Source: an uncultured virus (IMG/VR IMGVR_UViG_2513020035_000002) (Duplodnaviria; Heunggongvirae; Uroviricota; Caudoviricetes). From it: a DNA stretch of 64,000 bases. The position numbers were made by a program, and so were the translations under genes. Below, piece after piece: positions 1,045-58,942 of this stretch (positions are counted from its first letter, which is position 1; each line of letters opens with the position of its first letter). The stretch lies in IMG/VR virus record IMGVR_UViG_2513020035_000002; one strand, 5' to 3'. The notes under the pieces are model-generated. The model ran no database searches. It saw only the letters and a list, made by a program, of their open reading frames with translations, and was not told the origin of the DNA.

Positions 1045-1160
1045 ACCATGGCGAAGTAAGTTAGATTGTCGCAATGTAATTCATGATGGAAGATGAGTTT
1101 GATATAAAGACTACTAAGATCAACTTTTGGTATAAGATGCTGATTTTTCAGTATATAAAA

Positions 1161-1196
1161 ATAGCTCCCTAGTTCGTCCGCCGACGAGGGAGCTAT
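1161..1196. terminator. hairpin, possible terminator
   Basis: ATAGCTCCCT...AGGGAGCTAT inverted repeat. Confidence 0.4.
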
Positions 1197-1446
1197 CAAC
1201 ACAAAAACTAAACTANNNNNNNNNNNNNNNNNNNNNNNNNNNNNNNNNNNNNNNNNNNNNNNNNGACACATTTTTGGAAATCTAGTTGTATATTCTGTGT
1301 ATCAATTATATAGTCCTGCTTTTTTTTATGGTTCGACCATAATTCGACCATTTGATGTTTTATGTACTATCAAGATTTCTATATTTCATATTTTATATTA
1401 CTTTAAATATTATATTTACGCATTGTCAAACTAAAATAGTGCGTTT

Positions 1447-2749: not shown

Positions 2750-3136
2750 TTATCCTATATTTCGTTCATTCTTCAACATAGCCAGTTCACCCTTTAATTT
2801 TTGGTTTTCTTCCAAAAGCCGTTGGGTAAGCATTGTCTTCTCATTGATTTCATCCTGCAAATTGGCTATGGTATATACAATACTTTTCAATTTGTCCATT
2901 CCTGGTTCTGTTTCTTCTTTTTGAATGAGCATGGAACCAGTTCCTCTTAACAACCATTCAGCGGAAATTTCCTCAAATGAGGATGAAATTGCTATTATTG
3001 TTGCAAGGCTAATTTCTCTTTTTCCTATCAGTTGATTATTAATAGTTGTGGGCTTTAATCCACACTTAATAGCAAATCCCCTCTCTGATAGCCCTGAATA
3101 GGTTATTACTTCTTTAATTCTGTTTATCATAATCAA
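2750..3136 (-). CDS. XRE/CI-like HTH repressor
   Basis: LSERGFAIKCGLKPTTINNQL HTH and ISAEWLLRGTG motif; divergent from the lytic genes. Confidence 0.85.
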   Translation of the reverse strand: MIMINRIKEVITYSGLSERGFAIKCGLKPTTINNQLIGKREISLATIIAISSSFEEISAEWLLRGTGSMLIQKEETEPGMDKLKSIVYTIANLQDEINEKTMLTQRLLEENQKLKGELAMLKNERNIG

Positions 3137-3829: not shown

Positions 3830-4141
3830 CCCTCACTAAAGTCAAACCAACCCGCCGGTTATCCGGTACCCAGTCCGGTCTTTGAGCCTGCCCTTGAAGG
3901 GAGACTGGGAACAACAGAGAAGAGTTCTTTGACATATTGGTAAAATGGTGTTTTGGAAGCCGACACGTGCCGAAAGGGATTACTGACGTAGGCGGGCTTC
4001 TCAACGATATAATGCTGTGGTTAATGGTCAAGCCGTATCGTTGTAAAACTAAATCAGTTAGACGNNNNNNNNNNNNNNNNNNNNNNNNNNNNNNNNNNNN
4101 NNNNTGTCGGCAAATCGTGGCATTTGCTTTATGTATATAAA

Positions 4142-4212
4142 GGTGATGTAGCTTAGTTGGTTAGAGCGTATGTTTTTACATGAGGTCGGCGGTTCGAATC
4201 CGCCCATCACTT
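4142..4212 (+). ncRNA. tRNA-like RNA with a 4-nt anticodon loop
   Basis: Acceptor GGTGATG/CATCACT; D arm GCTTAGTTGGTTAGAGC; T arm GGCGG-TTCGAAT-CCGCC; anticodon arm TATGT-TTTT-ACATG. Confidence 0.75.
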
Positions 4213-4435: not shown

Positions 4436-5257
4436 TTAGATTAATTCAACTTGAATGTTATATCTTGTTTTAATATTCTCTTTTAATTTAATCATATAAT
4501 CTCTATTTGATTTGCTTTGTACAAGGCTGTATAATTGAATACCAGCATTAGTCAAGCCAAAAGATTGAAATTCAATAGTGTGTTTTCTATGCGGAAGTGT
4601 AATTGTTAAGGAACTCCCTTTTATTTCAATCTCTTCTTCGTCTATAGAATAAATACATTCAGCTTCTGTAAACAAACCACAATCACATAGAGATAGGAAT
4701 TGGCTGTATGGATAAATTTTTTTCTCAAATAAAAAGCGAGGGACAATACGATTGTTAAGTATGAATGGACATATTTCAACGAACCATTTTGCCTCATTGA
4801 CTTCTATATGTTTTAGAACAAATAATGTTCTTTTATTATATGTGTTTGGTGATTTGATTTCACCGGCTAAAATTCTAGACCACAATGTTTTAGCTTCATC
4901 ATCAGAGATGTCTTTTGCATAATCAAAGAATTGTGATGCCCAATCTACATTAACAGGTTCATCTGATACATTCTCAATTATAGCCAATTCTTCGGCTGCC
5001 ATTGAATATATATCAGCTATATTATTACATTGTCTTTGCTCTCTAATTGACTTTACAGAGTCGATTGTAGTTGAAAGAAGAGCTTGTTTCATCTGTAGTT
5101 TCATATCTAAATTGCAGTTAAGCTCTTTTACTTCTCGTTCAGCTTTTGCTATTCTTTTTATTTGATACGGTTTGAAAAGCCCTGTGCAACCGTTACTAAA
5201 TGTTTCAATAAGTTTTACTAAGGGTTCGGAAAGTCCGACTAAATCTTTTATTTCCAT
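4436..5257 (-). CDS. DUF2806-like moron protein
   Basis: DWASQFFDYAKDISD...LWSRILAGEI motif; own TATTTTTG element at 5286-5293 (minus). Confidence 0.7.
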   Translation of the reverse strand: MEIKDLVGLSEPLVKLIETFSNGCTGLFKPYQIKRIAKAEREVKELNCNLDMKLQMKQALLSTTIDSVKSIREQRQCNNIADIYSMAAEELAIIENVSDEPVNVDWASQFFDYAKDISDDEAKTLWSRILAGEIKSPNTYNKRTLFVLKHIEVNEAKWFVEICPFILNNRIVPRFLFEKKIYPYSQFLSLCDCGLFTEAECIYSIDEEEIEIKGSSLTITLPHRKHTIEFQSFGLTNAGIQLYSLVQSKSNRDYMIKLKENIKTRYNIQVELI

Positions 5258-5761
5258 AATAATAAATTTAAAAATTCGACAATGACAAAAATATAAATAA
5301 AAATGAAAGGGCATACCCGTTTTTGATTATAAATTTAAAATTCGACACTTTATTTTTATTAGGGTGTGTCCTTTATTNNNNNNNNNNNNNNNNNNNNNNN
5401 NNNNNNNNNNNNNNNAGCATTTGAAAGGACAAGTTTTTGAAATAATAAACACCCCCACAGTATTGTTTAGGTTATTATCACTAAAATATAATTTACTTAT
5501 TTGTTTATGAAATTTCCCCAATTTATCAGCAAATACTTAGTCAGGAAAATTAAGATGTGAGTCATTGAGGAAACACAACTTTACGGTGGTTACTGAGAAA
5601 TAACCTCCTTTATTGTAAATGCACCTTTGAAAGAGTGGCGCATCCGATTGTGGTATGTCACTCATTTCAAAGATGAATATGGCTCAGGCGATAAGCCTGA
5701 TTGGGAACGGTTATTGGCTTATCTCACTCATTGAGTAGTCCCATTAATTAATAACATATTT

Positions 5762-6584: not shown

Positions 6585-6772
6585 AAACATTGAAAATCGT
6601 TCATAACATTTTTACAGTGGTTGCCTTATTGGTAGCTATGTATATAGGTGGGGGAATCGAAGCTACAAGAAGTGATATCGCTTGGTCATATATCATATTC
6701 TTCGTAGTCGTTGTACTATTGGTTACTAGATTTATCTATGAAGATAAGAAACAAAATAAAAATAGCCTGTGA
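6581..6772 (+). CDS. small membrane protein
   Basis: Two hydrophobic segments. Confidence 0.7.
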   Translation: MKTLKIVHNIFTVVALLVAMYIGGGIEATRSDIAWSYIIFFVVVVLLVTRFIYEDKKQNKNSL

Positions 6773-6828
6773 AGGTCAACATTGCTTAATTTTAGTATTA
6801 GCCAATTAGCCCGGTTCTCCGGGCATCT

Positions 6829-6899
6829 GCCGGGATAGCCCAGTTGGTTAGAGCGCATGTTTCTACATGAGGTCAGCGGTTCGAATCTGTTTCCCGGCT
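6829..6899 (+). ncRNA. tRNA-like RNA with a 4-nt anticodon loop
   Basis: Acceptor GCCGGGA/TCCCGGC; D arm; CATGT-TTCT-ACATG; T arm AGCGG-TTCGAAT-CTGTT. Confidence 0.75.
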
Positions 6900-6991
6900 C
6901 AACTCAATCAGAGTTAAGTAACCCGTGAGGGTGAAAATATATTTGCATTATATATACAATCAATGTAGCCGGAAGCGTCTGGCTACGACCT

Positions 6992-7089
6992 GAAGGAATG
7001 GCGGAATTGGTAAACGCAAGTATGCAGATAGATTGAAGAAAGTCATACATAGGTAATCTATCATCCCGGTTCGAGTCCGGGTTCCTTCA
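6992..7089 (+). ncRNA. tRNA-like RNA with Leu-type D arm and replaced anticodon domain
   Basis: Acceptor GAAGGAA/TTCCTTC; GGCGGAATTGGTAAACGC; T arm CCCGG-TTCGAGT-CCGGG. Confidence 0.7.
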
Positions 7090-7355
7090 CAGAGAATTTT
7101 TCTTTTTATGTTTAACTAATGTTGCCAGCGAAAAGGACGCTGTAGGGTTAAAGCCCCTGTTATTTGAGTTTTAATTGTTCTATACTATTCCGGTGTGCTT
7201 TGAACGGCTATCCGGAAGCAAGAAGCTCGTGAGAGTGCTATTTAATAGTTAATGTCGTGTNNNNNNNNNNNNNNNNNNNNNNNNNNNNNNNNNNNNNNNT
7301 TTATTTTGTGTTTGTGTTCTAGGTGAATGGTTCGTGAGAATAGTTCACTTAAAAC

Positions 7356-7422
7356 GGATGGCTGGTGTAATTGGCAGCATACGCAGATATGCGTGATGTG
7401 GGTTCGATCCCCACGCCATTCA
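7356..7422 (+). ncRNA. tRNA-like RNA with a 4-nt anticodon loop
   Basis: Acceptor GGATGGC/GCCATTC; ACGCA-GATA-TGCGT; T arm GTGGG-TTCGATC-CCCAC. Confidence 0.7.
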
Positions 7423-7523
7423 CCCTTCTGATCCTAATTAAATTATAGTAGTTCATGAGTTTTGTTTTGTGTTTGTGATTGGGGTGTATGGTCTGTGAAG
7501 ATAGTGCACCTTTTTAATTAATC

Positions 7524-7606
7524 GGGCGGATATGTATATCGTTGGTTGAAACTGCGGTGAGGTGCACCAATATTCCGTGAGACCGGTTCGACTCCGGTTC
7601 CGTCCA
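7524..7606 (+). ncRNA. tRNA-like RNA with acceptor and T arm only
   Basis: GGGCGGA/TCCGTCC-A; ACCGG-TTCGACT-CCGGT; no canonical D stem. Confidence 0.6.
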
Positions 7607-7701
7607 CTAGCATTTACATTATGTATAAATCAGGGAGCCGTACACCCTTCAAAGCGTAGCCGTTCCATAAGGTACATTGGATTATTCATTTTCTTATTTT
7701 T

Positions 7702-7732
7702 CTGCCTGTACAATATCGTACAGGCAGTTTTT
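7702..7732 (+). terminator. intrinsic terminator closing the ncRNA region
   Basis: CTGCCTGTAC-aatatc-GTACAGGCAG then TTTTT. Confidence 0.75.
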
Positions 7733-7842: not shown

Positions 7843-8625
7843 ATGACAGCGAGAAAAAACACTGTATCAACGGTTCAGAATGAAGAGAAGAAGAAAAATT
7901 CTATCAGACCGCTTCTAGCTTCTGAAATTGAATGTAGGGTTGGTACTATGAAACCGGACGGTTCGGGCTGCTCCTTGCTATTATACAAGGATGCTCGAGT
8001 AGACATGAGAATACTTGATGAAGTGTTCGGAGAAATGAACTGGAAACGGCACCATGATGTCGTTAATGGGAATCTATTCTGTACGTTGTCCATTTGGGAT
8101 AATGAAAAGAAGGAATGGGTGAGTAAACAGGATGTTGGGACAGAATCTAGCACAGAAAAAGAGAAAGGGCAGGCTTCGGACGCCTTTAAACGTGCAGGAT
8201 TTAACTGGGGAATTGGGCGTGAACTTTATACGGGTCCTTTCATTTGGATTCCACTTGAGAAAAATGAAATATATCAGAGCAAAACAGGTTCTCCTGCTCT
8301 ATACACCAAATTCAGTGTAAAAGAGATTGGTTATAACGAGCAAAAGGAGATTATTTTACTTGTTATTGTGGACAATAAAAACCGCGTTCGTTTTGCTTAT
8401 GGTAATACAAAGGAAAAAGTATATGCTCCCAATGTTTCTGCTTCAAACGCTTCGGGCAAAGTATATACTGGTGTAGACCTGGATCGTGCAATTAAACAAA
8501 TGACTGGTGTTAAAAGCCGCGAAGAGCTTGAGAGAGTTTGGGCTGAACATCCCGAACTTCACAATAATAAGGAGTTCAGAAACATAACTATTGACATGCA
8601 GAAAACGTATCCTCCTAGAAATTGA
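7843..8625 (+). CDS. Sak/Rad52-like ssDNA-annealing protein
   Basis: YKDARVDMRILDEVFG and KGQASDAFKRAGFNWGIGRELY. Confidence 0.8.
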   Translation: MTARKNTVSTVQNEEKKKNSIRPLLASEIECRVGTMKPDGSGCSLLLYKDARVDMRILDEVFGEMNWKRHHDVVNGNLFCTLSIWDNEKKEWVSKQDVGTESSTEKEKGQASDAFKRAGFNWGIGRELYTGPFIWIPLEKNEIYQSKTGSPALYTKFSVKEIGYNEQKEIILLVIVDNKNRVRFAYGNTKEKVYAPNVSASNASGKVYTGVDLDRAIKQMTGVKSREELERVWAEHPELHNNKEFRNITIDMQKTYPPRN

Positions 8626-18145: not shown

Positions 18146-18802
18146 ATGACAGAGATTATTCAAGTCTGCCTACTTGATTTTAATAAGGGGCAGCTCACGG
18201 GATTGCCGAAAAATCCACGTTTTTTTCGTGATTACCGCTTTGAAGCGATGAAGAAAAGCATTCAGGATTCGCCAGAGATGCTTGAGCTTCGAGAACTTAT
18301 AGTTTTTCCCTACAATGATGGCAGATATATTGTTGTTTGTGGTAATTTACGTTTGCGAGCTTGCAAGGAGTTAGGTTATAAAGAACTGCCTTGTAAAATT
18401 CTGGCACCTGATACCCCCGTTAAGAAGTTGAGGGAATATGCCACTAAAGATAATGTCAATTTTGGTGAGAATGATTTGGACGTTATGGAAAACGAGTGGA
18501 ATAAGGCGGAACTCCAAGATTGGGGCATCGAATTTGCCCCGGAGAAGAAAGAGGATGAATTTAAAGAGCGCTTCGATGCCATCACGGATGATACAGCCAT
18601 TTATCCTCTCATTCCAAAGTATGACGAAAAACATGAGTTGTTTATCATCACCTCAAGTAATGAGGTAGATAGCAACTGGCTTCGTGAAAGGCTGGACATG
18701 CAGCACATGAAGTCGTACAAAACCGGGAAAATAAGTAAATCCAATGTAATTGATATAAAAGACGTTCGCCATGCCCTGCAAGATAGTAATACCAAGTCAT
18801 AA
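18146..18802 (+). CDS. ParB/Srx N-terminal domain protein
   Basis: NPR, VVCGNLRLRACKELG, KDNVNFGE. Confidence 0.75.
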   Translation: MTEIIQVCLLDFNKGQLTGLPKNPRFFRDYRFEAMKKSIQDSPEMLELRELIVFPYNDGRYIVVCGNLRLRACKELGYKELPCKILAPDTPVKKLREYATKDNVNFGENDLDVMENEWNKAELQDWGIEFAPEKKEDEFKERFDAITDDTAIYPLIPKYDEKHELFIITSSNEVDSNWLRERLDMQHMKSYKTGKISKSNVIDIKDVRHALQDSNTKS

Positions 18803-19523
18803 ACGCCATGACCGGGTGTTCGCTAAAAAGTTGGTGAACGATCCTATCATTTGCGTTGCTGAAAGTCAAGCTGACTTATATCAACAATTTAACCCGGAAT
18901 GTGAAATTGTTACTCATCCTGACGACGTTATGGGCCTCATCCCGAAACGTAACTGGATGGCAAAGCATTTTGGAGAACTTTTCATGCTTGATGATGATGT
19001 CCATGCCTGCAAACCTATTTATGTGGAAAAAGGAGAACCTAGCCGGATAAAGGATAAAGATAAGATAACCAATATCATTCAGTCATTATTTGAGATGGCC
19101 AGTATGATGGATGTACATCTGTTTGGCTTCACCGCTCGGATATCGCCGGTAATGTATGATGAATCCGCTTTTCTTTCTCTTTCGAAAATGATAACCGGTT
19201 GCAGTTATGGAGTAATCTATAACAAAAACACTTGGTGGAATGAGGAAATACGTTTGAAGGAAGATTTTTGGATTTCTTGTTACATGAAGTACAAAGAACG
19301 TAAGGTTTTAACCGATTTGCGGTATAATTTTGAGCAAAAGAACACTTTTGTAAACGCTGGTGGGCTTGCTTCTATAAGGAATCAGGAAGAGGAACGTAAA
19401 TCTATCCTCTTTATCAAAAAGAATTTTGGTGATAGTATTTTGCTAAAGAGTGCAACCACTAATGGGAAAGACAAAACAAAGCAGCTCGTTCAATATAATA
19501 TATCATGCAAATTCAAATTCTAA
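18771..19523 (+). CDS. GT-A glycosyltransferase, TAGT/GREB1-like
   Basis: IVIPSHKR, KRNW, FMLDDD, KEDFWIS, NAGG. Confidence 0.65.
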   Translation: MPCKIVIPSHKRHDRVFAKKLVNDPIICVAESQADLYQQFNPECEIVTHPDDVMGLIPKRNWMAKHFGELFMLDDDVHACKPIYVEKGEPSRIKDKDKITNIIQSLFEMASMMDVHLFGFTARISPVMYDESAFLSLSKMITGCSYGVIYNKNTWWNEEIRLKEDFWISCYMKYKERKVLTDLRYNFEQKNTFVNAGGLASIRNQEEERKSILFIKKNFGDSILLKSATTNGKDKTKQLVQYNISCKFKF

Positions 19524-25835: not shown

Positions 25836-27046
25836 TTAGATATGAATTATACTGTCAATATCTTCTTCATTATCAATATACATTTTGATGTATTTTCTTA
25901 ATAGGGCTGGATTATTGGCACATTCATCTGTTTTAATTATTTGGAGATTATTTAATCCATATAAAGATGTCAAATTCCAATTTGTCATTTCTTGTAGTGA
26001 ACGTTTTATCTCAATTNNNNNNNNNNNNNNNNNNNNNNNNNNNNNNNNNNNNNNNNNNNATTTTGCGTCTTTAGTGAATATTGTAATATTCTTCTTTTGA
26101 GGATTAGTGGATGAAGATTGTCTTTCAAAAAAGGCTTTAAAATATTGGCTGTCATTTATGCCTAATGAATGCCCAAATATTGTAATATCATCAGCATCCA
26201 TTAAATCATATACCATAGCAGGAGGATTATATTGAGAATCAAATGATTTCTGTATGAAGTCATAGTTATGAACAATTTTCTCGTCTTTTGTTCCTAATAT
26301 AATATTTCCATCTAAGATACATCCATGTACATAGTTTATTGTATCATTAAACTCCATTGCAAAACTGGAATNNNNNNNNNNNNNNNNNNNNNNNNNNNNN
26401 NNNNNNNNNNCTACTTCACTAAAACTCGTGTAGTTAAAAGAATATATGACAATTTGATCATTTGATTTATTCCGCATAAAGGTTCTTGCGACAATTGCAG
26501 CTATAGAATTTTCGTTAATAGCTTCTTGCTGTACTTTTATGAGATATTGTATTAATCCATTTTTTATGAGTTGTAAGGCTTTTTGGTCTCGTTCAATAGG
26601 AGGATTTAATATATCTTCATGCGAGAAACTGATATAACAAGAAAAGCGTGGTAAGATTAATATTCCGTTTTTTAACAAATTATTGACAATATCCACATTA
26701 GATTTTATACATTCATAAAATTCTGTGACTGGTCCATTTGCCTGAATTNNNNNNNNNNTGTTCTAAAACGTTCCTTTCTTTATCGTTGTATAGGTCTATT
26801 ATTTGCCCATTATTGTTTTTGATTCTTATATAATAATTGTATAACTCATTCTCCAAATCATACCATTTTACAGCATCTAAATTATCNNNNNNNNNNCCAT
26901 TTGTCATTTAGATGTTTGATTAAAGGAGATGGGTAGTCTTTGGGACAAAATTCAGATTGGCAAAAGTCCTTGTATGAAGTCTTTCTGCCTAAACAAAGGT
27001 CAAATCCGTTACCTATTATCAGAACTCTTTTTCTGTCTTTATTCAT
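25836..27046 (-). CDS. AbiH-family abortive infection protein, split by N runs
   Basis: N-terminus MNKDRKRVLIIGNGFDLCLGRKTSYKDF read from the minus strand; SFNYT, VHG, IFGHSL. Confidence 0.85.
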
Positions 27047-27147
27047 ATTGCAAAGGTAAGGAAAAATTGTAATAATAAGAACTGAAATTTATATAATTGT
27101 TGAACCTTTGGTGTATTGTTTATTCGATACACCTTTATTTTTTTGTG

Positions 27148-27939
27148 ATGATGAGAAAAATGATTGTAACTGGCAGTGAGGGATTTATTGGTAAAGCCCT
27201 TTGCCGAGAATTAGCCAAAAGAGGTGTTGAAGTCATAGGACTTGACCGAAAGTGTGGTACTGAAGCTACGGAAGTATGCGAGCTCCTGAAGAATGGGGGG
27301 ATTGATTGTGTGTTCCATTTGGCGGCGCAAACCAGTGTGTTTAATGGAAACCTGGAACAAATCAGGAGGGATAACATTGATACTTTCATGCGAGTAGCTG
27401 ATGCTTGCAATCAAAATCATGTGAAGTTAATATATGCCAGTTCGTCAACGGCTAATCCGGAGAATACCACTTCTATGTATGGAATAAGCAAGTATTTCGA
27501 TGAACAGTATGCATCTATCTATTGTAAGGCTGCGACCGGGTGCCGGCTACATAATGTATATGGACCTAATCCGCGAAAAAGAACTCTTCTCTGGTTCCTG
27601 ATGGAAAAGGAAAACGTGTCATTATACAACTGTGGTCAGAATATCCGGTGCTTCACTTACGTAGATGATGTCATTGAGGGGCTTATCTATTCGGTGGGTT
27701 GTAACCGGCAACTTATCAATATTTGTAACGTCCAACCTGTGACTACTATGTATTTTGCTTCTTTAGTAAAATACTACAAACCGCTTGAAATTGAGCTAAT
27801 TAATGAAAAACGGGATTTTGACAATTTGGAGCAGTCGGTGAACCGGGATATCTATTTAGTACCTTTGTCTTACACATCTGTCGAGGACGGAGTAAAGAAG
27901 ATCTTTGATGAAAGGAAAGGGAAAGATATGTCGTATTGA
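27148..27939 (+). CDS. NAD-dependent epimerase/dehydratase
   Basis: VTGSEGFIG, HLAA, YASS, YGISK, NVYGP. Confidence 0.9.
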   Translation: MMRKMIVTGSEGFIGKALCRELAKRGVEVIGLDRKCGTEATEVCELLKNGGIDCVFHLAAQTSVFNGNLEQIRRDNIDTFMRVADACNQNHVKLIYASSSTANPENTTSMYGISKYFDEQYASIYCKAATGCRLHNVYGPNPRKRTLLWFLMEKENVSLYNCGQNIRCFTYVDDVIEGLIYSVGCNRQLINICNVQPVTTMYFASLVKYYKPLEIELINEKRDFDNLEQSVNRDIYLVPLSYTSVEDGVKKIFDERKGKDMSY

Positions 27940-28504
27940 CGACTGGGATAAGCCGGAAGCGGTGAAATGTAAGAGCTGGTCTCATCAGGAACGGTTATGT
28001 GATCTGAAAGAAAAGGTATCACTTCATAAAAAGGGTGATATCTATTACATCTCCCAGTTCACCCGTTCCAAGACTGGTACCAGCTTTTCAGAAATTAAAC
28101 AGTCGGAGGAACTTGCATCATTCTTTGCAGAGAGANNNNNNNNNNNNNNNNNNNNNNNNNNNNNNNNNNNNNNTGAGTTTCTCCACCGCTTCATAGTAGG
28201 GGGATATGAAGGATGGTGTATAGTCACCACACCGCGACGGAGACACAACGAGGGCTTTCATTTTTCAACCTCTATCTGTACGAAAATTGCGGGGGCGGTG
28301 AAAATACCATTCTATGAGAATGCAATTCAGTGCCTAACTAAAGATAGATTGAATCCGGAATTCTTTCTTCTTCGTCCGATAAAGGAAAAGAAGATAATAG
28401 TGTACGATGACATATTAACAACTGGCAGCACACTGCTTGCCACCTATGAGCTTTTAAAGGATAGAGAGCAGCTTCTTTTTCTCGTAGGAATAAATAACAA
28501 TTGA
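27905..28504 (+). CDS. type I phosphoribosyltransferase-like protein
   Basis: IIVYDDILTTGST PRPP-binding motif. Confidence 0.8.
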   Translation: MMKGKGKICRIDDWDKPEAVKCKSWSHQERLCDLKEKVSLHKKGDIYYISQFTRSKTGTSFSEIKQSEELASFFAERXXXXXXXXXXXXXEFLHRFIVGGYEGWCIVTTPRRRHNEGFHFSTSICTKIAGAVKIPFYENAIQCLTKDRLNPEFFLLRPIKEKKIIVYDDILTTGSTLLATYELLKDREQLLFLVGINNN

Positions 28505-38708: not shown

Positions 38709-41700
38709 ATGGCAGATTTAAAATTAAAAGATTTCGTTGATGAGAACGATTTGCAGAAATTGGTGGAGCTTGATAATACTATTGAGCGTGTGAGGGCTGA
38801 TTATGTTAATGCGGCCAAAGAATTAGCAAAAGGTTTGAAACTAAATGTAGAAGGCGTTGCTGATCTTGAAAAGTTGAGTAATCTTTATAATACTCAAGCA
38901 AAAACGGCTGGTTCTGCATCTGCTGAATTAACCGAAGCTCTTAGAAAACAGTCTGAAATAACTCAAACTGTCAGTAAGAAGATAGAGGAAAAGCTAAATG
39001 TAGAGAAATTATCTGCTGCTGAACTGAAGAAACTAACCAAGGCAAACTCGGATAATGCTGCGTCCTTGGAAAAGGCTGCTAAAGCGGAAGCTAACTTGAC
39101 AAAAGCGCAGAATGCCGGTAATACTACTCGTAAGAAAGCTGTTTTATCTGAAGAAGAACGTTTAAAACTTATCAGAACTGCTATTACCTTGACTAATCAG
39201 GAAGTACATAGCCGTTCACAAGCAAAGGAAATGAATAAGCAGCTGCAAAAGGCTGTTGATGTTTTGAAAGATACGGATGAAAACTATATTCGTACACTTG
39301 CCCGTCTTAATTCTACTATTGGAATCAACACTGATTACATAAAGCGAAATTCCGATCGATATAGTCAACAGAAAATGACAATTGGTGCATACCGGGAAGA
39401 AGTAAAGGCTGCATGGGTTGAGATACAGAACGGTAATAAGTCCATGCAGAATATGGGTATTATTGCCCGGAATGCAGGAAGGATGCTTAAAACGGAGATG
39501 GCTCCTGGGCTAAGCCAAGTTAGTGCAGGATTGAAAGGATGGGCTGCTGGATATATTGGTGCACAAGCTGTTGTTAGTGGAGTTGTTGCTTTATTTACAA
39601 AACTGCGTGAAGGAGTAGGTGATATTGTTAAATTTGAATTAGCTAATAGTAGGCTTGCTGCAATATTAGGAACCACTTCTGATAAAGTGAAGGAGTTAAC
39701 TGCGGATGCTCAACGTTTGGGCGCTACAACGAAATACACTGCATCCGAAGCTACGGATTTGCAAATAGAACTTGCTAAACTAGGTTTTACTCGAAAAGAA
39801 ATATTAGATGCAACAGAGCACGTTCTAAAATTTGCACAAGCTACCGGGGCAGAATTAGCAGATGCGGCTTCATTGGCAGGGGNNNNNNNNNNNNNNNNNN
39901 NNNNNNNNNNNNNNNNNNNNNATGTTTAATGCTGATACAAGAGAAACTGAAAGATATGTGTCTGCGATGGCTGTCGCAACAACCAAAAGCGCATTGTCGT
40001 TTTCATATCTCGCTACTGCATTACCAATTGTTGGACCGGTTGCAAAAGCCTTTAATTTCAGTATTGAAGATACTTTGGCTTTGTTGGGTAAATTATCGGA
40101 TGCCGGCTTTGATGCTTCAATGGCTGCTACTGCTACCCGTAATGTTTTTCTAAATTTAGCTGATAGTAATGGAAAGCTGGCGAAGGCGTTAGGTAAGCCC
40201 GTTAAAACATTGCCTGAGTTAGTTGAAGGATTGAAATCGCTAAAAGAAAAAGGAGTAGACTTGAATACTACTCTTGAATTAACTGATAAGCGTAGTGTTG
40301 CCGCTTTTAATGCCTTTCTCACCGCTGTTGATAAAATATTACCACTTAGAGAACAGATTACTGGTGTAGAACGTGAATTGGGCGATATGGCTCACACGAT
40401 GGGAGATAATGTTCATGGAGCTCTTGCTAACTTATCTTCAGCATGGGAAGCGTTTATGCTTTCTTTCTCCGAGTCAACGGGACCTGCTAAGGAATTTCTT
40501 AATTGGATGGCTGATAAAATAAGAGATATCGCCAATGATTTGAAATCTCCTGAAGAAAAAATAGAAAAGATAGATTATAATTTTAGAACACTTGCAAAAA
40601 AAGATGCGAACAAAAAGTTATTGGAAGTAGAAAAAGATTTCCAGGTAGAATATAAGAGGCTTATTGATGCTGGTGATACAGAGGAACAAGCATACACAAA
40701 AGCTGTTATTCAAATGAAAAATAAACGTATTGAAGTAACGGCCCAAGAGAGAGAAGCTTTAAAACGGATGAAAACTCGTGCTCAATATGCAACATCAGAG
40801 TTTGAAGATATGTCTTGGATAAAGAATGGTGCTGCTAAAATGTTTGGCTATTACACATCGGAAGCAGAAAAAGCGGATANNNNNNNNNNNNNNNNNNNNN
40901 NNNNNNNNNNNNNNNNAGGCTCAGTTGGAATTTTCTAAAAACTTATTCAAAATAGCATCTAGCGATGAGTTTAATCGTGGACTTGATGTGATTGCAGAAA
41001 AGTTCCGTCCAAAGGGTAACGACAAAAATGGTTCAGGTATAACAGTCCTTACTGATAAAGAAAAACGTGAACAGGAAAAAGCTCTCAAAGAGAAGCTGAA
41101 AATTCATGAAACTTATCAGGAGTCAGAACTAGCTCTTATGGATGAGGGACTGGAGAAAGAACTTGCTAAAATTGGTGTTGCTTACTCGAAGAAGATTGCT
41201 GCCGTCAAGGGTAATAGCAAAGAGGAAATTGCTACACGTCAGAATTTAGCTAAGGAAATGCAGGAAAAGCTAGATGAGTTTACTATTAAGTATAATTCTG
41301 ATCGTGAGAAGAAGGATGTTGAGAACGCTCTTGCTGTTGTAAAAAAGGGGTCCCAGGAAGAACTTGATTTGAAATTGCACCAGTTGGAATTGCAACGTGA
41401 AGCAGAAATTGATGCAGCAGAGAAAACAGGTGAAGATGTTTTTCTCATTGACGACAAATATGCAAAAAAGAAACAAGAACTTTACGAAAGACATGCATCC
41501 GATCAGGTGCAATTAATAGCAGAGAATGCAGCGCATGAGCAGGAAATCCGGGATGCTGCCTATGTTATGGATACGCTTGCTCTTAAAAAACAGTTAGCTT
41601 CTAAGGAAATAACCCAGCAGGAGTATGCAGAACTTGAGTATCAGTTAAAATTAGATTATGTACGTAAAACCTCGGAAGCTGCCATTGACGCTTTGGAATC

Positions 41701-42720
41701 CGAACTTGCTACTGCCAACTTGAGTACGGACAAAAGGGAGAAACTTGAGGAGAAACTTGCAAAATTGAAAGCGGACCTTGCCCAAAAAGAAGCAGAAACA
41801 GAAATAGATGCTATCAATAAAGTTACTAAAGCGGATGAGAAAGCACAGAAAGAACGTCAGAGGAATCTGAAAAAATGGCTTCAAACTGCATCTCAAGCAG
41901 TGGGTGCTATTGGTGATCTAGTCTCTACTATTTATGATGGTCAGATTCAGAAAATAGAAGAAGAGCAGGAAGCTAATGATGAGAAATATGATAAGGATGT
42001 AGAACGAATACAGAATCTAGCTGATTCNNNNNNNNNNNNNNNNNNNNNNNNNNNNNNNNNNNGGGAGCAATCTCCGAAGAAGAAGCAGAAGCTCGTAAGC
42101 GTGCGGCCAAGGAAAGAACTGAAGCTAAGAATGCTGAACTTGAAAAACAAAAACAAGAAATGGCACGTAAACAAGCCATTTGGGAAAAGGCGACTAGTGT
42201 CGCTCAAGCTGGAATAGCCACTGCACTGGCAATAACTGAAGCTTTACCGAATATTCCTTTATCTATTGTTATTGGTGCCATGGGAGCAATTCAGGTTGCA
42301 ACTATTCTTGCAACTCCTATTCCTTCCTATGCAGACGGTACTCAAGGTAATGATAGGCATCCCGGCGGTACCGCTTTAGTTGGTGATGCCGGTAAACATG
42401 AAGTTATCATGTATTCCGGAAAAGCATGGATTACTCCTGATACTCCAACTTTAGTTGATATTCCTAAAGGTGCGCAAGTCTTTCCTGATGTTGATAAGGT
42501 AGATATCTCTAATTTTGATATACCGGATTGGGACTTTCCCACATTTTCACCGACATATTTTGCATCTTCTTCCGGTGACACCATTGTTTTCAATGATTAT
42601 TCCCGGTTAGAAAAAAGGGTTGATAGAACAAATTTCCTTTTGATGAAGAGTCTAAAAATGCAACGCCAAGATGCTTCTAACCGTGAATTTGAACTGTATA
42701 AGTTATCTAAACTGAAATAG
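38709..42720 (+). CDS. tape measure protein, split by three N runs
   Basis: LGATTKYTASE, LAKLGF, GFDASMAATATR; long helical repeats; ALVGDAGKHE. Confidence 0.9.
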
Positions 42721-55253: not shown

Positions 55254-56042
55254 ATGACGAATGAACAAAGCGCAACGCTGCTTCGCTTGAATAAACAGGC
55301 ACAAGTGGCAGCACTGAACGCCGTGGGCTTCTCGGATGTCACCGAGAATTCCCGCGCATCTGAATTTGGACAACGTATCAAGTGGGCCGCCGGTCTGCTT
55401 GATCTGCATCTTGCCTGTAATCGTATTTCGGATAACTCCAAGGCATACTTTACTGCTGCCGAATGGAACTCCCTTACGCTCGCTAATAAGCAACTGTATA
55501 TCAAACGCGGGCTTCGTATCCGTGCCCATGGACACTCCTTCGTAATCGCCGCCCAGGAGTGCTATAATGCCGATATGACTACTACCTTCTATTGGGGCGG
55601 TCAGGGTAAAGCCATAGACGGCCTGAACCAAAAAGGACTGGGTGCCATGTACGGCTGCTTCACGGGTGAGGAAGATACCGACCTGATTATCACTACCCTG
55701 AAAGAGCAAAACAATAGCGGTGTAATCGGTGCGCCGGCTGCCGAAGCCGCCCGTGCATACCGTGCCTACACTTTGGAAAGTGACGGTATCGAGGATGAAT
55801 CCAACTGGTTCCTTCCTTCATCCGGCCAAATGCTTCTGATGTACCGCTATCGCGATAAAATCAATGAGATGATGCGTACCTTTTGGAGTAGTGATAGTAT
55901 GCTGATGACTGATAAATACTACTGGTCATCAACAATTTGGGATACTAACTCCGCCTGGACATTCGAACTGAATACCGGGCGTATTACGAATCAAAACAAA
56001 AATTCAGCCCTTCTTCATGTGAGAGCTGTTGCTTCCGAATAG
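55254..56042 (+). CDS. CLec-fold receptor-binding paralogue
   Basis: WFLPSSGQM, YWSST, VRAV; clearly paralogous to the next gene. Confidence 0.8.
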   Translation: MTNEQSATLLRLNKQAQVAALNAVGFSDVTENSRASEFGQRIKWAAGLLDLHLACNRISDNSKAYFTAAEWNSLTLANKQLYIKRGLRIRAHGHSFVIAAQECYNADMTTTFYWGGQGKAIDGLNQKGLGAMYGCFTGEEDTDLIITTLKEQNNSGVIGAPAAEAARAYRAYTLESDGIEDESNWFLPSSGQMLLMYRYRDKINEMMRTFWSSDSMLMTDKYYWSSTIWDTNSAWTFELNTGRITNQNKNSALLHVRAVASE

Positions 56043-56067
56043 TATTAACTTAATATTATACAATAAA

Positions 56068-56911
56068 ATGGATAAGAATATCGCCAGCGCCATGCTTCTG
56101 CGCCTGAATAAACAAGACCAAATAGAAGCTTTAAAGTCAATAGGTTTTACAACTGTAAATGAAAACACCCCCGCAAGCGACATCGCCAAATATATGCAAT
56201 GGGCAGGTACGCTTCTTGACCTTTCTTTGGCTACTCTCCGAATTGAAGACGGTGAACAAGTCTTTTTCACGGCTTCCGAATGGAACTCCATGAGCGCAAA
56301 TAACCGCTCCAAGTATATCCGTATTGGCATCCGACTTCGTGCCGAATGCCACCAGTTCATTATCGCCAAAAGTGACTGCGTTGACGCAGGCGGCAACAAA
56401 ACGTTCAAATGGGGTGGCTACGGAACCGACCTACGCGGCCTGAAAAACTACGGTAGTGGTAACCAAGAACTCTATGATACCTTCGACGGCAAAGAAAATA
56501 CCGATGTTATAATAGAAACCCTTGCAGGCGTCAAGGACACCCAGGGAACTGTCGGCGCCCCTGCCGCCGAAGCTGCCAGAGCCTATAAAGCCTGTACGCT
56601 TGAATCTGACGGAATTGAAGATACAACCGTGTGGAACCTGCCCGCACTGGGTGAACTTATGCTTATGGCCAAGTATAAAACCGAAATCAATGAGCTCATA
56701 ACTTCTATGTTTGGCAATCAAAATATATTTACAAACGACTGGTATTGGTCTAGTACCGAATATGACGCTTCCAGCAGTTGGTACGTGTACTTCATCGGCG
56801 GCTACGTCAACACGTACTACCGCCAGTACGCGTACCGGGTTCNNNNNNNNNNNNNNNNNNNNNNNNNNNNNNNNNNGTCCCCTCGCCGCAATAAACACTT
56901 TATCCCTTTAA
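56068..56911 (+). CDS. DGR target protein (CLec fold, C-terminal VR)
   Basis: WNLPALGEL, YWSSTE; removing the Ns gives RVRPLAAINTLSL*. Confidence 0.88.
56767..56890 (+). repeat. DGR variable repeat (VR)
   Basis: Differs from the TR only at TR adenines (10 mismatches). Confidence 0.95.
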
Positions 56912-56940
56912 TTCTTTATCCCTTAGAGGGTTAGCTAAAT

Positions 56941-56962
56941 AAAAGCCCCGGTAGGGGCTTTT
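56941..56962 (+). promoter_or_regulatory. DGR target hairpin and/or terminator
   Basis: AAAAGCCCC-GGTA-GGGGCTTTT with a GRNA-type loop, downstream of the VR. Confidence 0.75.
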
Positions 56963-57065
56963 TAGTTTCACTTTTTTGTGCTAAAATTGTGTTAATTGCT
57001 TTACAGTTATTNNNNNNNNNNCTTTGTGTCCTCTAATACATACATTAAAATATTGAAAAATTAAC

Positions 57066-57473
57066 ATGGCACTTACACAAGACCTTCCTATATCAAATTC
57101 GATGTATAAGCTTCTGAACCTTATCATTGATGCCCGGCAACAATTCCCCAAGGCGTTCCGGTATGAATTTGGTACGGAGTTGATGATGCTTGCCGTCCAT
57201 TGTTGCGAATATATCCGTTATGCAAATACAGATATGAACCTTGAGCACCGTGCAGATTATCTGATGAAGTTTTTGTGTGAGTTTGATGCATTGAAATTAC
57301 TGCTAAGAGTGTGTGAAGAACGACATTTGACCAGCCTGACTCAAACTGCCGAAATCTGTCTGCTTGCAGAGAGCATCGGTAAGCAAAGTACCGGTTGGTA
57401 CAAAAAAACGGTTGCAGATCTCCAACGGCAAAAAGCTAACGGATCGCAACAAGTCGCAAAGCCGGAGTCATAA
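57066..57473 (+). CDS. avd: DGR accessory protein (Avd-like four-helix bundle)
   Basis: DLPI...FPKAFRYEFG...IGKQSTGW; lies between VR and TR. Confidence 0.85.
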   Translation: MALTQDLPISNSMYKLLNLIIDARQQFPKAFRYEFGTELMMLAVHCCEYIRYANTDMNLEHRADYLMKFLCEFDALKLLLRVCEERHLTSLTQTAEICLLAESIGKQSTGWYKKTVADLQRQKANGSQQVAKPES

Positions 57474-57487
57474 TCGCCAAGGGGATT

Positions 57488-58942
57488 ATGAGTGAGCAAT
57501 TAGAATTATTTATTGGGCATCCCCCCGGTGATGAGCCGGGAAAGACTAAGATAGCGGATGCAACGGCTTCCAGCAGTTGGAACGTGAACTTCAACAACGG
57601 CAACGTCAACACGAACAACCGCCAGAACGCGAACCGGGNNNNNNNNNNNNNNNNNNNNNNNNNNNNNNNNNNTCGTCCCCTCGCCGCAACAGGTAATATA
57701 ATCTATGACATACTTCTTAGCAGTATTTTCGAAGCATCCGAAGATTGTGCCAGGCAGAAAAGAACGAGTACGGATTGTGTTGAGTTTTATAATGATTATC
57801 AGTCCGCATTGGTGCGGCTATGGTATTCTATTATTTACGGTGAATATGTACCGGACTTTTCAAAAGTATTCATACGGACTTACCCGGTATATCGGGAGGT
57901 TTTTGCCGCCGCTTTCATTGATCGTGTTGTCCATCACTGGATCGCTCTTCGTATCGAGCCGATTTTAGAGGAACGTTTTCGGGAACAAGGGAACGTCTCG
58001 AAGAACTGCCGGAAAGGTGAGGGATGTCTGTCTGCCGTGCACTATCTGAATAACATGATAGTCGAGGTCAGTGAGAATTATACTGCCGATGCGTACATTT
58101 TCAAAGATGACCTGTTCAGTTTCTTCATGTCTATCTCGAAATCGTTGGTATGGGAAATGCTGAACATATTCGTAAGGGACAATTATAAAGGCGATGATAT
58201 TGAATGTCTGCTTTACCTTCTAGCCGTTACTATCTTTCATTGTCCACAAAATAAGTGTATCAGACGCTCTCCCGTCTCCATGTGGGACAAACTTCCCAGT
58301 AATAAAAGTCTGTTTCATAATGACCCTGACAGGGGAGTGGCTATCGGGAACCTGCCGTCACAACTCATAGCTAACTTCTTGGCGTCTGTTTTCGATTATT
58401 ATGTAATGGTGATGTTAGGATTCAGGCATTATGTACGCTTTGTTGATGACTTTTGTATTGTGGTGAAATCTCCGGAAGAAATATTGTCCAAAGTCCATCT
58501 TCTTGATGGTTTCCTGAAAGAACAACTCCTTTTACGGTTGCATCCACGCAAACTGTATCTTCAGCATTATAAAAAAGGAGTCTTGTTTGTAGGGGCGTTC
58601 ATTTTGCCTAGTAGAATTTATGTATCTAACAGGGTGGTTGGTAACACATATAACGCTGTCAGGAAATTTAATAAAATAGCTGAAAATGGATTTGCAGAAG
58701 CGTATGTTGAGAAATTTGTGAGTACAATGAATTCTTATTATGGCTTGATGAAACACTTTGCAACGTACAATATCCGCCGTAGAATTGCAGCGATGTTACT
58801 TCCTGAATGGTGGGAATATGTTTATATCGAAGGACATTTTGAAAAGTTTGTATTGAAGAATAAATATAACCATAGAAAACAACTAATTAAACATATCAAA
58901 AAACATGGATCAAAAAAATATCTTACCGCGTGGGATTGCTAA
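57488..58942 (+). CDS. DGR reverse transcriptase
   Basis: FIDRVVHH, GVAIGNLPSQLIAN, YVRFVDDF. Confidence 0.95.
   Translation: MSEQLELFIGHPPGDEPGKTKIADATASSSWNVNFNNGNVNTNNRQNANRXXXXXXXXXXXXRPLAATGNIIYDILLSSIFEASEDCARQKRTSTDCVEFYNDYQSALVRLWYSIIYGEYVPDFSKVFIRTYPVYREVFAAAFIDRVVHHWIALRIEPILEERFREQGNVSKNCRKGEGCLSAVHYLNNMIVEVSENYTADAYIFKDDLFSFFMSISKSLVWEMLNIFVRDNYKGDDIECLLYLLAVTIFHCPQNKCIRRSPVSMWDKLPSNKSLFHNDPDRGVAIGNLPSQLIANFLASVFDYYVMVMLGFRHYVRFVDDFCIVVKSPEEILSKVHLLDGFLKEQLLLRLHPRKLYLQHYKKGVLFVGAFILPSRIYVSNRVVGNTYNAVRKFNKIAENGFAEAYVEKFVSTMNSYYGLMKHFATYNIRRRIAAMLLPEWWEYVYIEGHFEKFVLKNKYNHRKQLIKHIKKHGSKKYLTAWDC
57566..57688 (+). repeat. DGR template repeat (TR)
   Basis: Copy of the VR with ten AAC codons. 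Confidence 0.95.

What the first reader, a model, noticed from the sequence alone, without database searches (positions are those of the whole stretch)
6765..7732. Phage array of 'anticodon-less' tRNA mimics
Seen: about 1 kb with no ORF in the track holds four elements (6829, 6992, 7356, 7524), each with a 7-bp acceptor stem and a canonical 5-bp T arm with a TTCGA loop. None has a 7-nt anticodon loop: two have 4-nt loops, one has an inserted domain, one lacks a D arm. None encodes CCA. A fifth copy sits at 4142. The array has an internal TATATTTG (6938-6945) and ends in a terminator. Inference: random decay would not spare acceptor and T arms while removing the anticodon in every copy, so these may be non-decoding mimics. 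Possible roles are decoys for anticodon nucleases or tRNA-sensing defences, sinks for tRNA-binding proteins, or RNase P/Z processing signals that release the intervening small RNAs.
Basis: partly seen in the sequence, partly recalled or inferred. Interest (0 to 1): 0.88.

Follow-up and report, generated by a model that had tools for sequence, protein, structure and literature searches.

The report
Phage array of anticodon-less tRNA scaffolds
A gut Bacteroides prophage carries a row of tRNA-shaped RNA genes that keep the parts host enzymes recognise but have lost or swapped the codon-reading arm, so they probably work as stable non-decoding decoys or carriers; similar lone RNAs in phages T4 and T5 are known but unexplained.

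Summary
Observation confirmed. Five tRNA shapes (E0 4142, E1 6829, E2 6992, E3 7356, E4 7524) lie in the early operon of a temperate Bacteroides phage, and ARAGORN finds no decoding tRNA in the window. In related prophages none of 38 distinct middles at slots E0-E3 restores a normal anticodon arm. The slot instead holds 3-4-nt loops or 38-105-nt cargo, including a second, circularly permuted tRNA elbow. Acceptor and T stems covary. The same cargo sits on different acceptors. The Leu-type body with unrelated cargo recurs in 92 distinct viral sequences that keep U48, A73 and the host's C74 signature. New parts: an rRNA-leader boxA upstream, and GUGA-loop hairpins just 5' of the shapes (43 of 51). 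Missing CCA is uninformative (host 1 of 57). Best reading: host-matured, non-decoding RNAs whose tRNA body is a scaffold and protein-binding decoy. Processing and function are inferred; RNA data are only suggestive. Closest known: T5 RNA1/RNA2 and T4 RNAC, function unknown. This scan noted similar scaffolds before on other DNA. New variant of a known kind.

The parts
3924..3939 (+). boxA-like antitermination site, identical over 16 nt to a site in the host rRNA leader
   Evidence: Same 16-mer at G001:C2:726-741, between the promoter region and the 16S gene; kept upstream of E0 in L060, L069, L070, L074. The name boxA is recalled.
4142..4212 (+). E0: tRNA shape with a 4-nt loop, G1.U72, U73; in most relatives this slot holds a 77-78-nt cargo forming a second, circularly permuted elbow
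   Evidence: (55 of 67 loci long form)
6809..6824 (+). leader hairpin 4 nt before E1
6829..6899 (+). E1: tRNA shape closest to host elongator tRNA-Met(CAU), anticodon loop cut to 4 nt, U73; relatives carry 14-15-nt middles or 38-105-nt cargo
6916..6934 (+). type-B spacer module: GUGA tetraloop hairpin flanked by AGUA/GAA (bulged-G-like, label recalled)
   Evidence: (2 matches, 0.09 expected)
6938..6945 (+). TAnnTTTG octamer; doubtful internal promoter
6965..6986 (+). leader hairpin 5 nt before E2
6992..7089 (+). E2: Leu-type body (A14, A15, U48, A73) with a 47-nt cargo that can form an H-type pseudoknot; other cargos of 55, 62-63 and 98 nt in relatives
7222..7237 (+). second type-B GUGA module
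7300..7318 (+). GU-rich tract before the type-A hairpin
7320..7351 (+). type-A GUGA hairpin in the leader of E3
7356..7422 (+). E3: minimal tRNA shape, short stem with a 4-nt loop, A73
   Evidence: missing from 9 of 61 relatives
7457..7478 (+). second GU-rich tract
7481..7512 (+). type-A GUGA hairpin with U tract in the leader of E4
7524..7606 (+). E4: tRNA shape without a D stem, with G3.U70 and A73 (tmRNA-TLD-like layout); 5-bp lower stem and a large loop
7561..7568 (+). self-complementary octamer in the E4 loop (possible kissing-loop dimer site)
   Evidence: palindrome of 6-10 nt in 16 of 17 variants; chance per variant about 0.02-0.36
7702..7732 (+). intrinsic terminator closing the array

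Best explanation
The region is a cassette array of non-coding RNA genes in the early rightward operon of a temperate Bacteroides phage. Shown: the anatomy, its conservation by covariation, and the exchange of cargo between bodies. Inferred steps: (1) transcription from the cro-side promoter runs through an rRNA-type boxA to the terminator at 7702-7732; (2) host RNase P, 3' trimming and CCA addition cut out each tRNA shape, as for host tRNAs; (3) the products keep the acceptor stem and D/T elbow but cannot read codons, so the body acts as a natural tRNA scaffold and the anticodon position is a free slot; (4) they act in trans as decoys or ligands for host proteins that read the upper half of tRNA (3'-end-directed toxins and defence effectors, synthetases, EF-Tu), with the cargo adding a second binding surface. 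My odds: functional non-decoding RNA 0.9; matured like tRNA 0.75; trans decoy or ligand as the main job about 0.45.
For: No canonical arm in 14, 9, 13 and 2 distinct middles at slots E0-E3, found in 67, 69, 78 and 60 of 100 loci. Covariation: short E0/E1 forms 97.8% of cells paired, 40 double changes vs 15.8 shuffled; double elbow 99.8%, 10 pairs with double changes; E4 96.8%, 30 vs 11.4. In the viral Leu-type sample, acceptors close in 57 of 66 distinct 5'/3' pairs vs 7.0 when swapped; positions outside the search pattern hold: U48 90 of 92, A73 74 of 92, C74 84 of 92 and U-1 63 of 92, against host C74 57 of 57 and U-1 35 of 57. Cargo falls into 76 clusters among 92, yet three cargos each occur on 3-4 distinct acceptor stems. 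Cargo-free forms are also kept (59 of 69 E1 loci), so the body itself matters. boxA identity with the rRNA leader. Contigs of three RNA libraries cover the array.
Against: No mature ends, strand, CCA or charging were seen: the one raw-read run gave 54 reads, 15 of them host tRNA-Met, and contigs in RNA libraries may be DNA. No partner protein or target was identified. Cargo of the viral sample is only weakly folded (median z -0.97; 13 of 92 below -2) and closes a proximal stem no more often than shuffles (32 vs 32.8). The E1 D stem has a mismatch in 7 of 17 variants, including this window. The inner elbow shows only one-sided changes. ARAGORN called E4 of L060/L067 tRNA-Cys(GCA) and E1 of L069 tRNA-Lys. 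Related sequences share ancestry, so the shuffle controls overstate.
Confidence: 0.45

Rival explanations
1. Punctuation in cis: the tRNA shapes are RNase P/Z cut signals, and the working products are the spacer RNAs (GU-rich tract plus GUGA hairpin at their 3' end) or a restructured early transcript; the hairpins may also be terminators read through under antitermination.
For: 43 of 51 distinct type-A hairpins lie 12-23 nt before a tRNA shape and 0 lie just after one; 26 of 51 have a GU-rich tract upstream. All four array elements have a leader hairpin (z -2.7 to -4.5). The motif is confined to the prophage in 3 of 4 genomes searched, absent from the fourth.
Against: Punctuation needs no cargo, yet cargos are conserved within families and move between bodies. 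Loci were fetched through tRNA shapes, which inflates the association. Only 6 of 160 distant Leu-scaffold loci have the hairpin; leader folding in the viral sample is only borderline above host (p 0.05).
Confidence: 0.2
2. Charged amino-acid carriers: Leu-type bodies (A73) and E4 (G3.U70, A73) are charged by synthetases that do not read the anticodon and either donate amino acids outside the ribosome or, for E4, compete with tmRNA for SmpB and stalled ribosomes.
For: E2 is closest to host tRNA-Leu; A73 in 74 of 92 viral Leu-type bodies. E4 has G3.U70 in 15 of 17 variants, A73 in all and no D stem, like the host tmRNA ends. That LeuRS and AlaRS ignore the anticodon is recalled knowledge.
Against: G3.U70 is lost in 2 of 17 E4 variants and present in only 4 of 13 double elbows; 18 of 92 Leu-type bodies lack A73; E0/E1 have U73 and derive from a Met-type body that needs its anticodon (recalled). 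E4 does not score with Rfam tmRNA models.
Confidence: 0.15
3. RNA-only assembly: the units dock through GNRA loops, kissing palindromes and double elbows into a multimer, as ornate phage RNAs do.
For: Palindrome of 6-10 nt in the E4 loop in 16 of 17 variants, with three different sequences; four GUGA tetraloops in the array; double elbow.
Against: Chance of such a palindrome per variant is about 0.02-0.36 and variants are related; one variant breaks it. Units are lost or added freely between relatives. No Rfam match to known ornate RNAs.
Confidence: 0.1
4. Decaying captured tRNA genes or mere recombination repeats in a variable region.
For: E3 is missing in 9 of 61 relatives and the E0-E1 distance varies from 0.8 to 3.4 kb; E1 D-stem mismatch in 7 of 17 variants; weak cargo folding in the viral sample.
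Against: Compensatory changes in acceptor and T stems, retention of unpaired U48 and C74, and a conserved second elbow on varied outer bodies.
Confidence: 0.07
5. Intron-containing tRNA genes that are spliced to decoding tRNAs.
For: Inserts lie at the anticodon position; 15 of 92 viral Leu-type bodies have YU at 32-33.
Against: Only 3 of 92 have YU plus a Leu anticodon in register; the short forms have nothing to splice; inserts are far shorter than group I introns (recalled); no ligase or splicing nuclease among 54 proteins scanned with Pfam or 19 with PHROGs.
Confidence: 0.03

Closest known systems
Phage T5 RNA1 and RNA2 ('tRNA-like stable RNA with unknown functions', AY543070) and T4 RNAC (species 1 RNA, AF158101)
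   Same: Phage-encoded tRNA upper body with a non-canonical middle. T5 RNA1 has a Leu-type D arm and a T arm around a long insert, like E2; T5 RNA2 has an extra T-loop hairpin in its insert; T4 rnaC ends in a 5-bp T arm. Roles unknown (PMC3014915, PMC9697503; passages).
   Different: Those are single RNAs among many decoding tRNAs in lytic phages. Here a temperate phage has five shapes and no decoding tRNA in the window, with cargo-free forms, cargo exchange at fixed slots, leader hairpin modules and a boxA. No sequence match to T4 or T5.
Engineered tRNA scaffolds for recombinant RNA (PMC3753655, search listing and start of abstract only)
   Same: Cargo in place of the anticodon loop on an intact tRNA body that the host should process and protect (design principle recalled).
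   Different: Natural, arrayed, many body types, and cargo-free versions are conserved.
YrlA Y RNA (10.1101/312249 and PMC4201824, passages)
   Same: The cargo of the long E0 form has the YrlA order: T arm, closed acceptor hairpin, D arm, joined through the anticodon stem.
   Different: The partner module is a second tRNA body, not a Ro60-binding stem; no TROVE gene in 5 of 5 genomes or records searched. This window's own E0 is the short form.
tmRNA tRNA-like domain
   Same: E4 has G3.U70, A73, no D stem, a D-loop GG and a short linker before the T arm, as at the ends of host tmRNA.
   Different: No mRNA-like domain or tag; no Rfam tmRNA score; G3.U70 not invariant.
Phage tRNAs that evade tRNA-targeting defences (PMC11555353, passages)
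   Same: Phage-encoded tRNA-type RNAs in a defence arms race is the likely setting.
   Different: There protection needed the anticodon; these RNAs cannot replace a cut tRNA.

Membership tests
Decoding tRNA | 5-bp anticodon stem with 7-nt YUNNNRN loop | tested here: not met
   0 of 5 window elements; 0 of 38 distinct middles at E0-E3. E4 of L060/L067 has a 7-nt loop on an extended stem, but it starts with G and the body lacks a D stem.
Decoding tRNA | 7-bp acceptor, T arm, host maturation signature (U-1, C74) | tested here: met
   C74 in 5 of 5 window elements.
T5 RNA1/RNA2, T4 RNAC kind | tRNA upper body with a non-canonical middle, phage-encoded | tested here: met
T5 RNA1/RNA2, T4 RNAC kind | Lies in a cluster of decoding tRNA genes | tested here: not met
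   No decoding tRNA in the window; more distant arrays include one tRNA-Ser(GCU).
T5 RNA1/RNA2, T4 RNAC kind | Accumulates as a discrete stable RNA | tested here: inconclusive
   Contigs in RNA libraries cover the array; no ends or strand.
T5 RNA1/RNA2, T4 RNAC kind | Sequence homology beyond generic tRNA motifs | tested here: not met
   blastn of the array against 50,697 phage records gave 2 short hits, neither T4 nor T5.
YrlA Y RNA (long E0 form of relatives) | Circularly permuted tRNA domain with closed acceptor | tested here: met
   inner helices are 100% paired but vary on one side only.
YrlA Y RNA (long E0 form of relatives) | Ro60-binding stem and a Ro60/TROVE gene nearby | tested here: not met
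   Outer module is a tRNA body (by inspection); TROVE 0 of 5; none among 54 window proteins.
tmRNA (E4) | Alanine identity G3.U70 with A73, no D stem | tested here: met
   Window and 15 of 17 variants.
tmRNA (E4) | mRNA-like domain with tag; match to tmRNA models | tested here: not met
   83 nt in all; no Rfam hit at E<=5; ARAGORN no tmRNA.
tmRNA (E4) | SmpB binding and alanylation | not testable with these tools
   Needs biochemistry.
Intron-containing tRNA | Anticodon kept in register next to the insert | tested here: not met
   3 of 92 viral and 2 of 54 genomic Leu-type bodies.
Anti-defence phage tRNA (replacement type) | Working anticodon | tested here: not met

The most novel reading that the evidence does not exclude
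The array is an RNA counterpart of a phage anti-defence gene cluster: a cassette system in which host-matured tRNA bodies deliver a large, exchangeable library of RNA cargos (pseudoknots, a second permuted elbow, kissing loops) that jam tRNA-sensing defences or translation factors. The same design would run through hundreds of phages of Bacteroidota and beyond and would explain T4 RNAC and T5 RNA1/RNA2.
Probability: 0.3. Interest if true: 0.92.

Novelty: new variant of a known kind. Interest (0 to 1): 0.74.

Why it matters
T4 RNAC and T5 RNA1/RNA2 are annotated as stable tRNA-like RNAs of unknown function. This array shows that the design is a large modular family, and it supplies natural controls: the same slot with and without cargo, the same cargo on different bodies, and relatives with and without a unit, in a temperate phage of a culturable gut genus. 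That makes the old question testable. If the decoy reading holds, it adds an RNA-based class of counter-defence and shows that phages use the tRNA-scaffold principle known from biotechnology. Annotation tools report these genes as undetermined tRNAs or miss them.

Tried and rejected
Own-genome search: not held; G001 used as host proxy. Rfam: only generic tRNA hits. Annotated phage records: 2 short hits for the array, none for the double elbow or one distant Leu-type body. Antisense targets in the window: best matches 11-12 nt, one or two each, not pursued as more than chance; the host genome was not available for a target search. Extra T-loops as a general cargo feature: 1 of 92 and 1 of 54, not enriched. 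Universal alanine identity: rejected; my script count of 3:70 pairs matched nothing (pattern fault). One search used a mis-spaced pattern; its 9 loci were not analysed. Short-arm shapes in other viruses: 27 of 50 distinct matches close an acceptor and only 14 of 27 have C74, so that set is mixed and is not used as support. The double elbow was found in 1 of 401 genomes of the order, in the G001 prophage. Raw RNA reads were too few. Ten literature searches found no paper on this array or on swappable-cargo phage tRNA scaffolds; the library lacks most subscription papers, including the original T4/T5 RNA work, and I read no supplements, where candidate-RNA tables might list these elements. PMC13191261 (passages) had nothing on them.

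Full report
Setting. The window is most of a temperate phage: repressor at 2750-3136 (minus), a rightward early operon, Erf-like annealing protein, RecE-like exonuclease, SSB, helicase and replication genes, then integrase, terminase, portal, capsid, tail, a diversity-generating retroelement and an amidase. The array fills the gap between a 63-aa gene ending at 6772 and the annealing-protein gene at 7843.

Observation. All five elements are real. Four score as tRNA in Rfam with E 5e-11 to 2.6e-5; E4 does not, but has 17 distinct variants. ARAGORN finds no decoding tRNA in the window. Missing CCA means nothing here: 1 of 57 host genes encodes it, while 57 of 57 have C after the discriminator, as do all five elements. 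The terminator is confirmed. The internal promoter is doubtful.

Homologues never restore the anticodon. I fetched 76 viral loci through the neighbouring gene and added 24 loci from genomes and pattern hits, some redundant. Slots E0, E1, E2 and E3 were matched in 67, 69, 78 and 60 of these 100 loci, with 14, 9, 13 and 2 distinct middles; none has a 5-bp stem with a 7-nt YUNNNRN loop. Against this, ARAGORN labelled E1 of L069 as tRNA-Lys and E4 of L060 and L067 as tRNA-Cys. The first has a 13-nt arm; the second has a 7-nt loop on an extended stem in a body without a D stem, and the other E4 variants do not keep it. More distant arrays mix shapes with one ordinary tRNA-Ser(GCU).

The anticodon position is a cargo slot. 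E1, closest to host elongator tRNA-Met, has a 14-15-nt middle in 59 of 69 loci and 38-105-nt cargo in 10. E2, a Leu-type body, carries 47, 55, 62-63 or 98 nt. Its 47-nt cargo can form two crossing helices; in 9 variants they are 97.8% and 100% paired, without double changes, so the pseudoknot is inferred. E0 carries a 77-78-nt cargo in 55 of 67 loci: a T arm, a closed 3-bp acceptor hairpin and a D arm, in the order described for YrlA (10.1101/312249, passages). This double elbow sits on very different outer bodies in gut metagenomes. In 13 variants 99.8% of cells pair; the outer acceptor has double changes at 6 of 7 pairs, while the inner arms are nearly invariant. Three E2-type cargos each occur on 3-4 distinct acceptor stems, so cargo and body behave as separate modules.

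Selection on the body. Short E0/E1 forms: 97.8% paired, 40 double-change cells against 15.8 in shuffles, and slid controls at 31-56%. E4: 96.8%, 30 against 11.4. These sequences are related, so the shuffles overstate. One sign of relaxation is a D-stem mismatch in 7 of 17 short variants, this window's E1 among them.

The design is widespread. Of 102 distinct viral matches, 93 close acceptor and T stems and 92 lack a canonical arm; of 104 genomic matches, 80 close and 54 lack one, and by inspection some of these are duplications or long-stem variants. Before any selection, acceptors close in 57 of 66 distinct viral 5'/3' pairs against 7.0 when partners are swapped. Positions outside the pattern are kept: U48 90 of 92, A73 74 of 92, C74 84 of 92, U-1 63 of 92. 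Cargo forms 76 clusters among 92 and is only weakly folded overall. Only 3 of 92 keep YU plus a Leu anticodon in register, which argues against introns.

The spacers are modules too. Four GUGA-tetraloop hairpins lie in the array and nowhere else in the window. Type A has a fixed top and freely covarying lower stems. In 340 loci, 43 of 51 distinct type-A hairpins lie 12-23 nt before a tRNA shape and none just after one; 26 have a GU-rich tract upstream (loci were chosen through tRNA shapes, so polarity is the control). Each of E1-E4 has a leader hairpin (the E0 value is unreliable because of Ns). A 16-nt site at 3924-3939 is identical to one in the host rRNA leader; I read it as boxA (label recalled), which suggests the operon is transcribed under rRNA-type antitermination.

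Expression. Fourteen RNA runs in 8 studies hold 63-86% of the sampled words of 6765-7240. I laid 4 of 24 listed runs. In X3 one contig spans 3234-7768 at depth 24.8 against 8.7 just downstream; X8 and X10 have contigs over the array at 14.5 and 13.5. Contigs give no strand or ends and may be DNA, and no silent control stretch was covered. The raw-read run gave 54 reads, 15 of them host tRNA-Met. Transcription is therefore plausible, not shown.

Mechanism. What is conserved is what RNase P, 3' maturation, the CCA-adding enzyme, EF-Tu and anticodon-blind synthetases read (established knowledge, recalled); what is free is what the ribosome and anticodon nucleases read. I therefore favour host-matured non-decoding RNAs acting in trans as decoys or ligands for upper-half readers, with cargo as a second binding surface (0.45). 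Cargo-free forms are conserved, so the body is more than packaging. Replacement of cut tRNAs is excluded, and in PMC11555353 (passages) protection needed the anticodon. Rivals: punctuation that releases spacer RNAs (0.2), charged carriers or a tmRNA competitor (0.15), RNA assembly (0.1), decay (0.07), introns (0.03). These are not fully exclusive.

Comparison with what is known. T5 RNA1 and RNA2 are annotated as tRNA-like stable RNAs of unknown function, and RNA1 is a Leu-type body with an insert. T4 RNAC ends in a T arm and its role is unknown. The array works like these but fails their cluster-context and homology tests. The long E0 form works like YrlA in fold but fails the Ro60 test. E4 resembles the tmRNA tRNA-like domain but has no tag region and no model match. 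Ten literature searches found no description of this array or of cargo exchange (listed under Tried and rejected). Earlier notes of this scan describe single scaffolds and one double elbow in other phages and led me to the T4/T5 records, which I checked; none matched this sequence.

Verdict. A real, selected, modular array of non-decoding tRNA-shaped RNA genes; a new variant of a known but unexplained kind; function inferred. Interest 0.74.

Noticed in passing
window 55254-58942 (+): Diversity-generating retroelement: two Lcl C-terminal-domain genes, bAvd and reverse transcriptase.
   Followed up: no
window 4436-5314 (-): DUF2806 gene inserted against the operon between E0 and E1; this interval varies from 0.8 to 3.4 kb among relatives, an accessory-gene hotspot.
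   Followed up: partly
window 25839-26696 (-): AbiH abortive-infection gene carried by the prophage.
   Followed up: no
window 18771-19523 and 27097-28504 (+): TET-associated glycosyltransferase, NAD-dependent epimerase and a weak phosphoribosyltransferase hit; possible DNA-modification pathway.
   Followed up: no
window 1155-1298 (-): Weak match to Bacteroides sRNA BTnc049 (40.7 bits, below the 81.9 gathering score).
   Followed up: no
window 38709-42217 (+): Tape-measure-like region split into three overlapping ORFs, two with minor-tail domains; may be an assembly effect.
   Followed up: no
L396, L401, L404, L409, L418, L447, L458 (match near 2489 or as): Leu-type tRNA bodies in proteobacterial MAGs with normal 7-nt loops but non-Leu anticodons (GGC, GGA, CGC, GTC, CGG) and long variable arms, most with CCA; candidate mistranslating tRNAs.
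   Followed up: no
L399:1718-3330 (Pedobacter sp.): Five near-tandem copies of a Leu-type body with the same 59-nt cargo at about 368-bp period, each followed by a terminator-like hairpin.
   Followed up: partly
L515, L525, L542, L561 and others: Stand-alone circularly permuted elbows with tetraloop-closed acceptors in environmental metagenomes, YrlA-like.
   Followed up: no
L042:4424-4585, L049:4466-4608, L075:1217-1380: Long branched cargo at the E1 slot (84-105-nt middles); part of it reminded me of a Bacteroides CRISPR repeat (recalled, not tested).
   Followed up: no
L069:4750-4901: E2-slot cargo with two further T-loop motifs in tandem.
   Followed up: no
L251:7268-7355, L253, L254: Related arrays keep one ordinary tRNA-Ser(GCU) among the non-decoding shapes.
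   Followed up: partly
window 6751-6761 (+): An 11-nt A-rich stretch just before the array is complementary to the GU-rich tract; probably chance.
   Followed up: no
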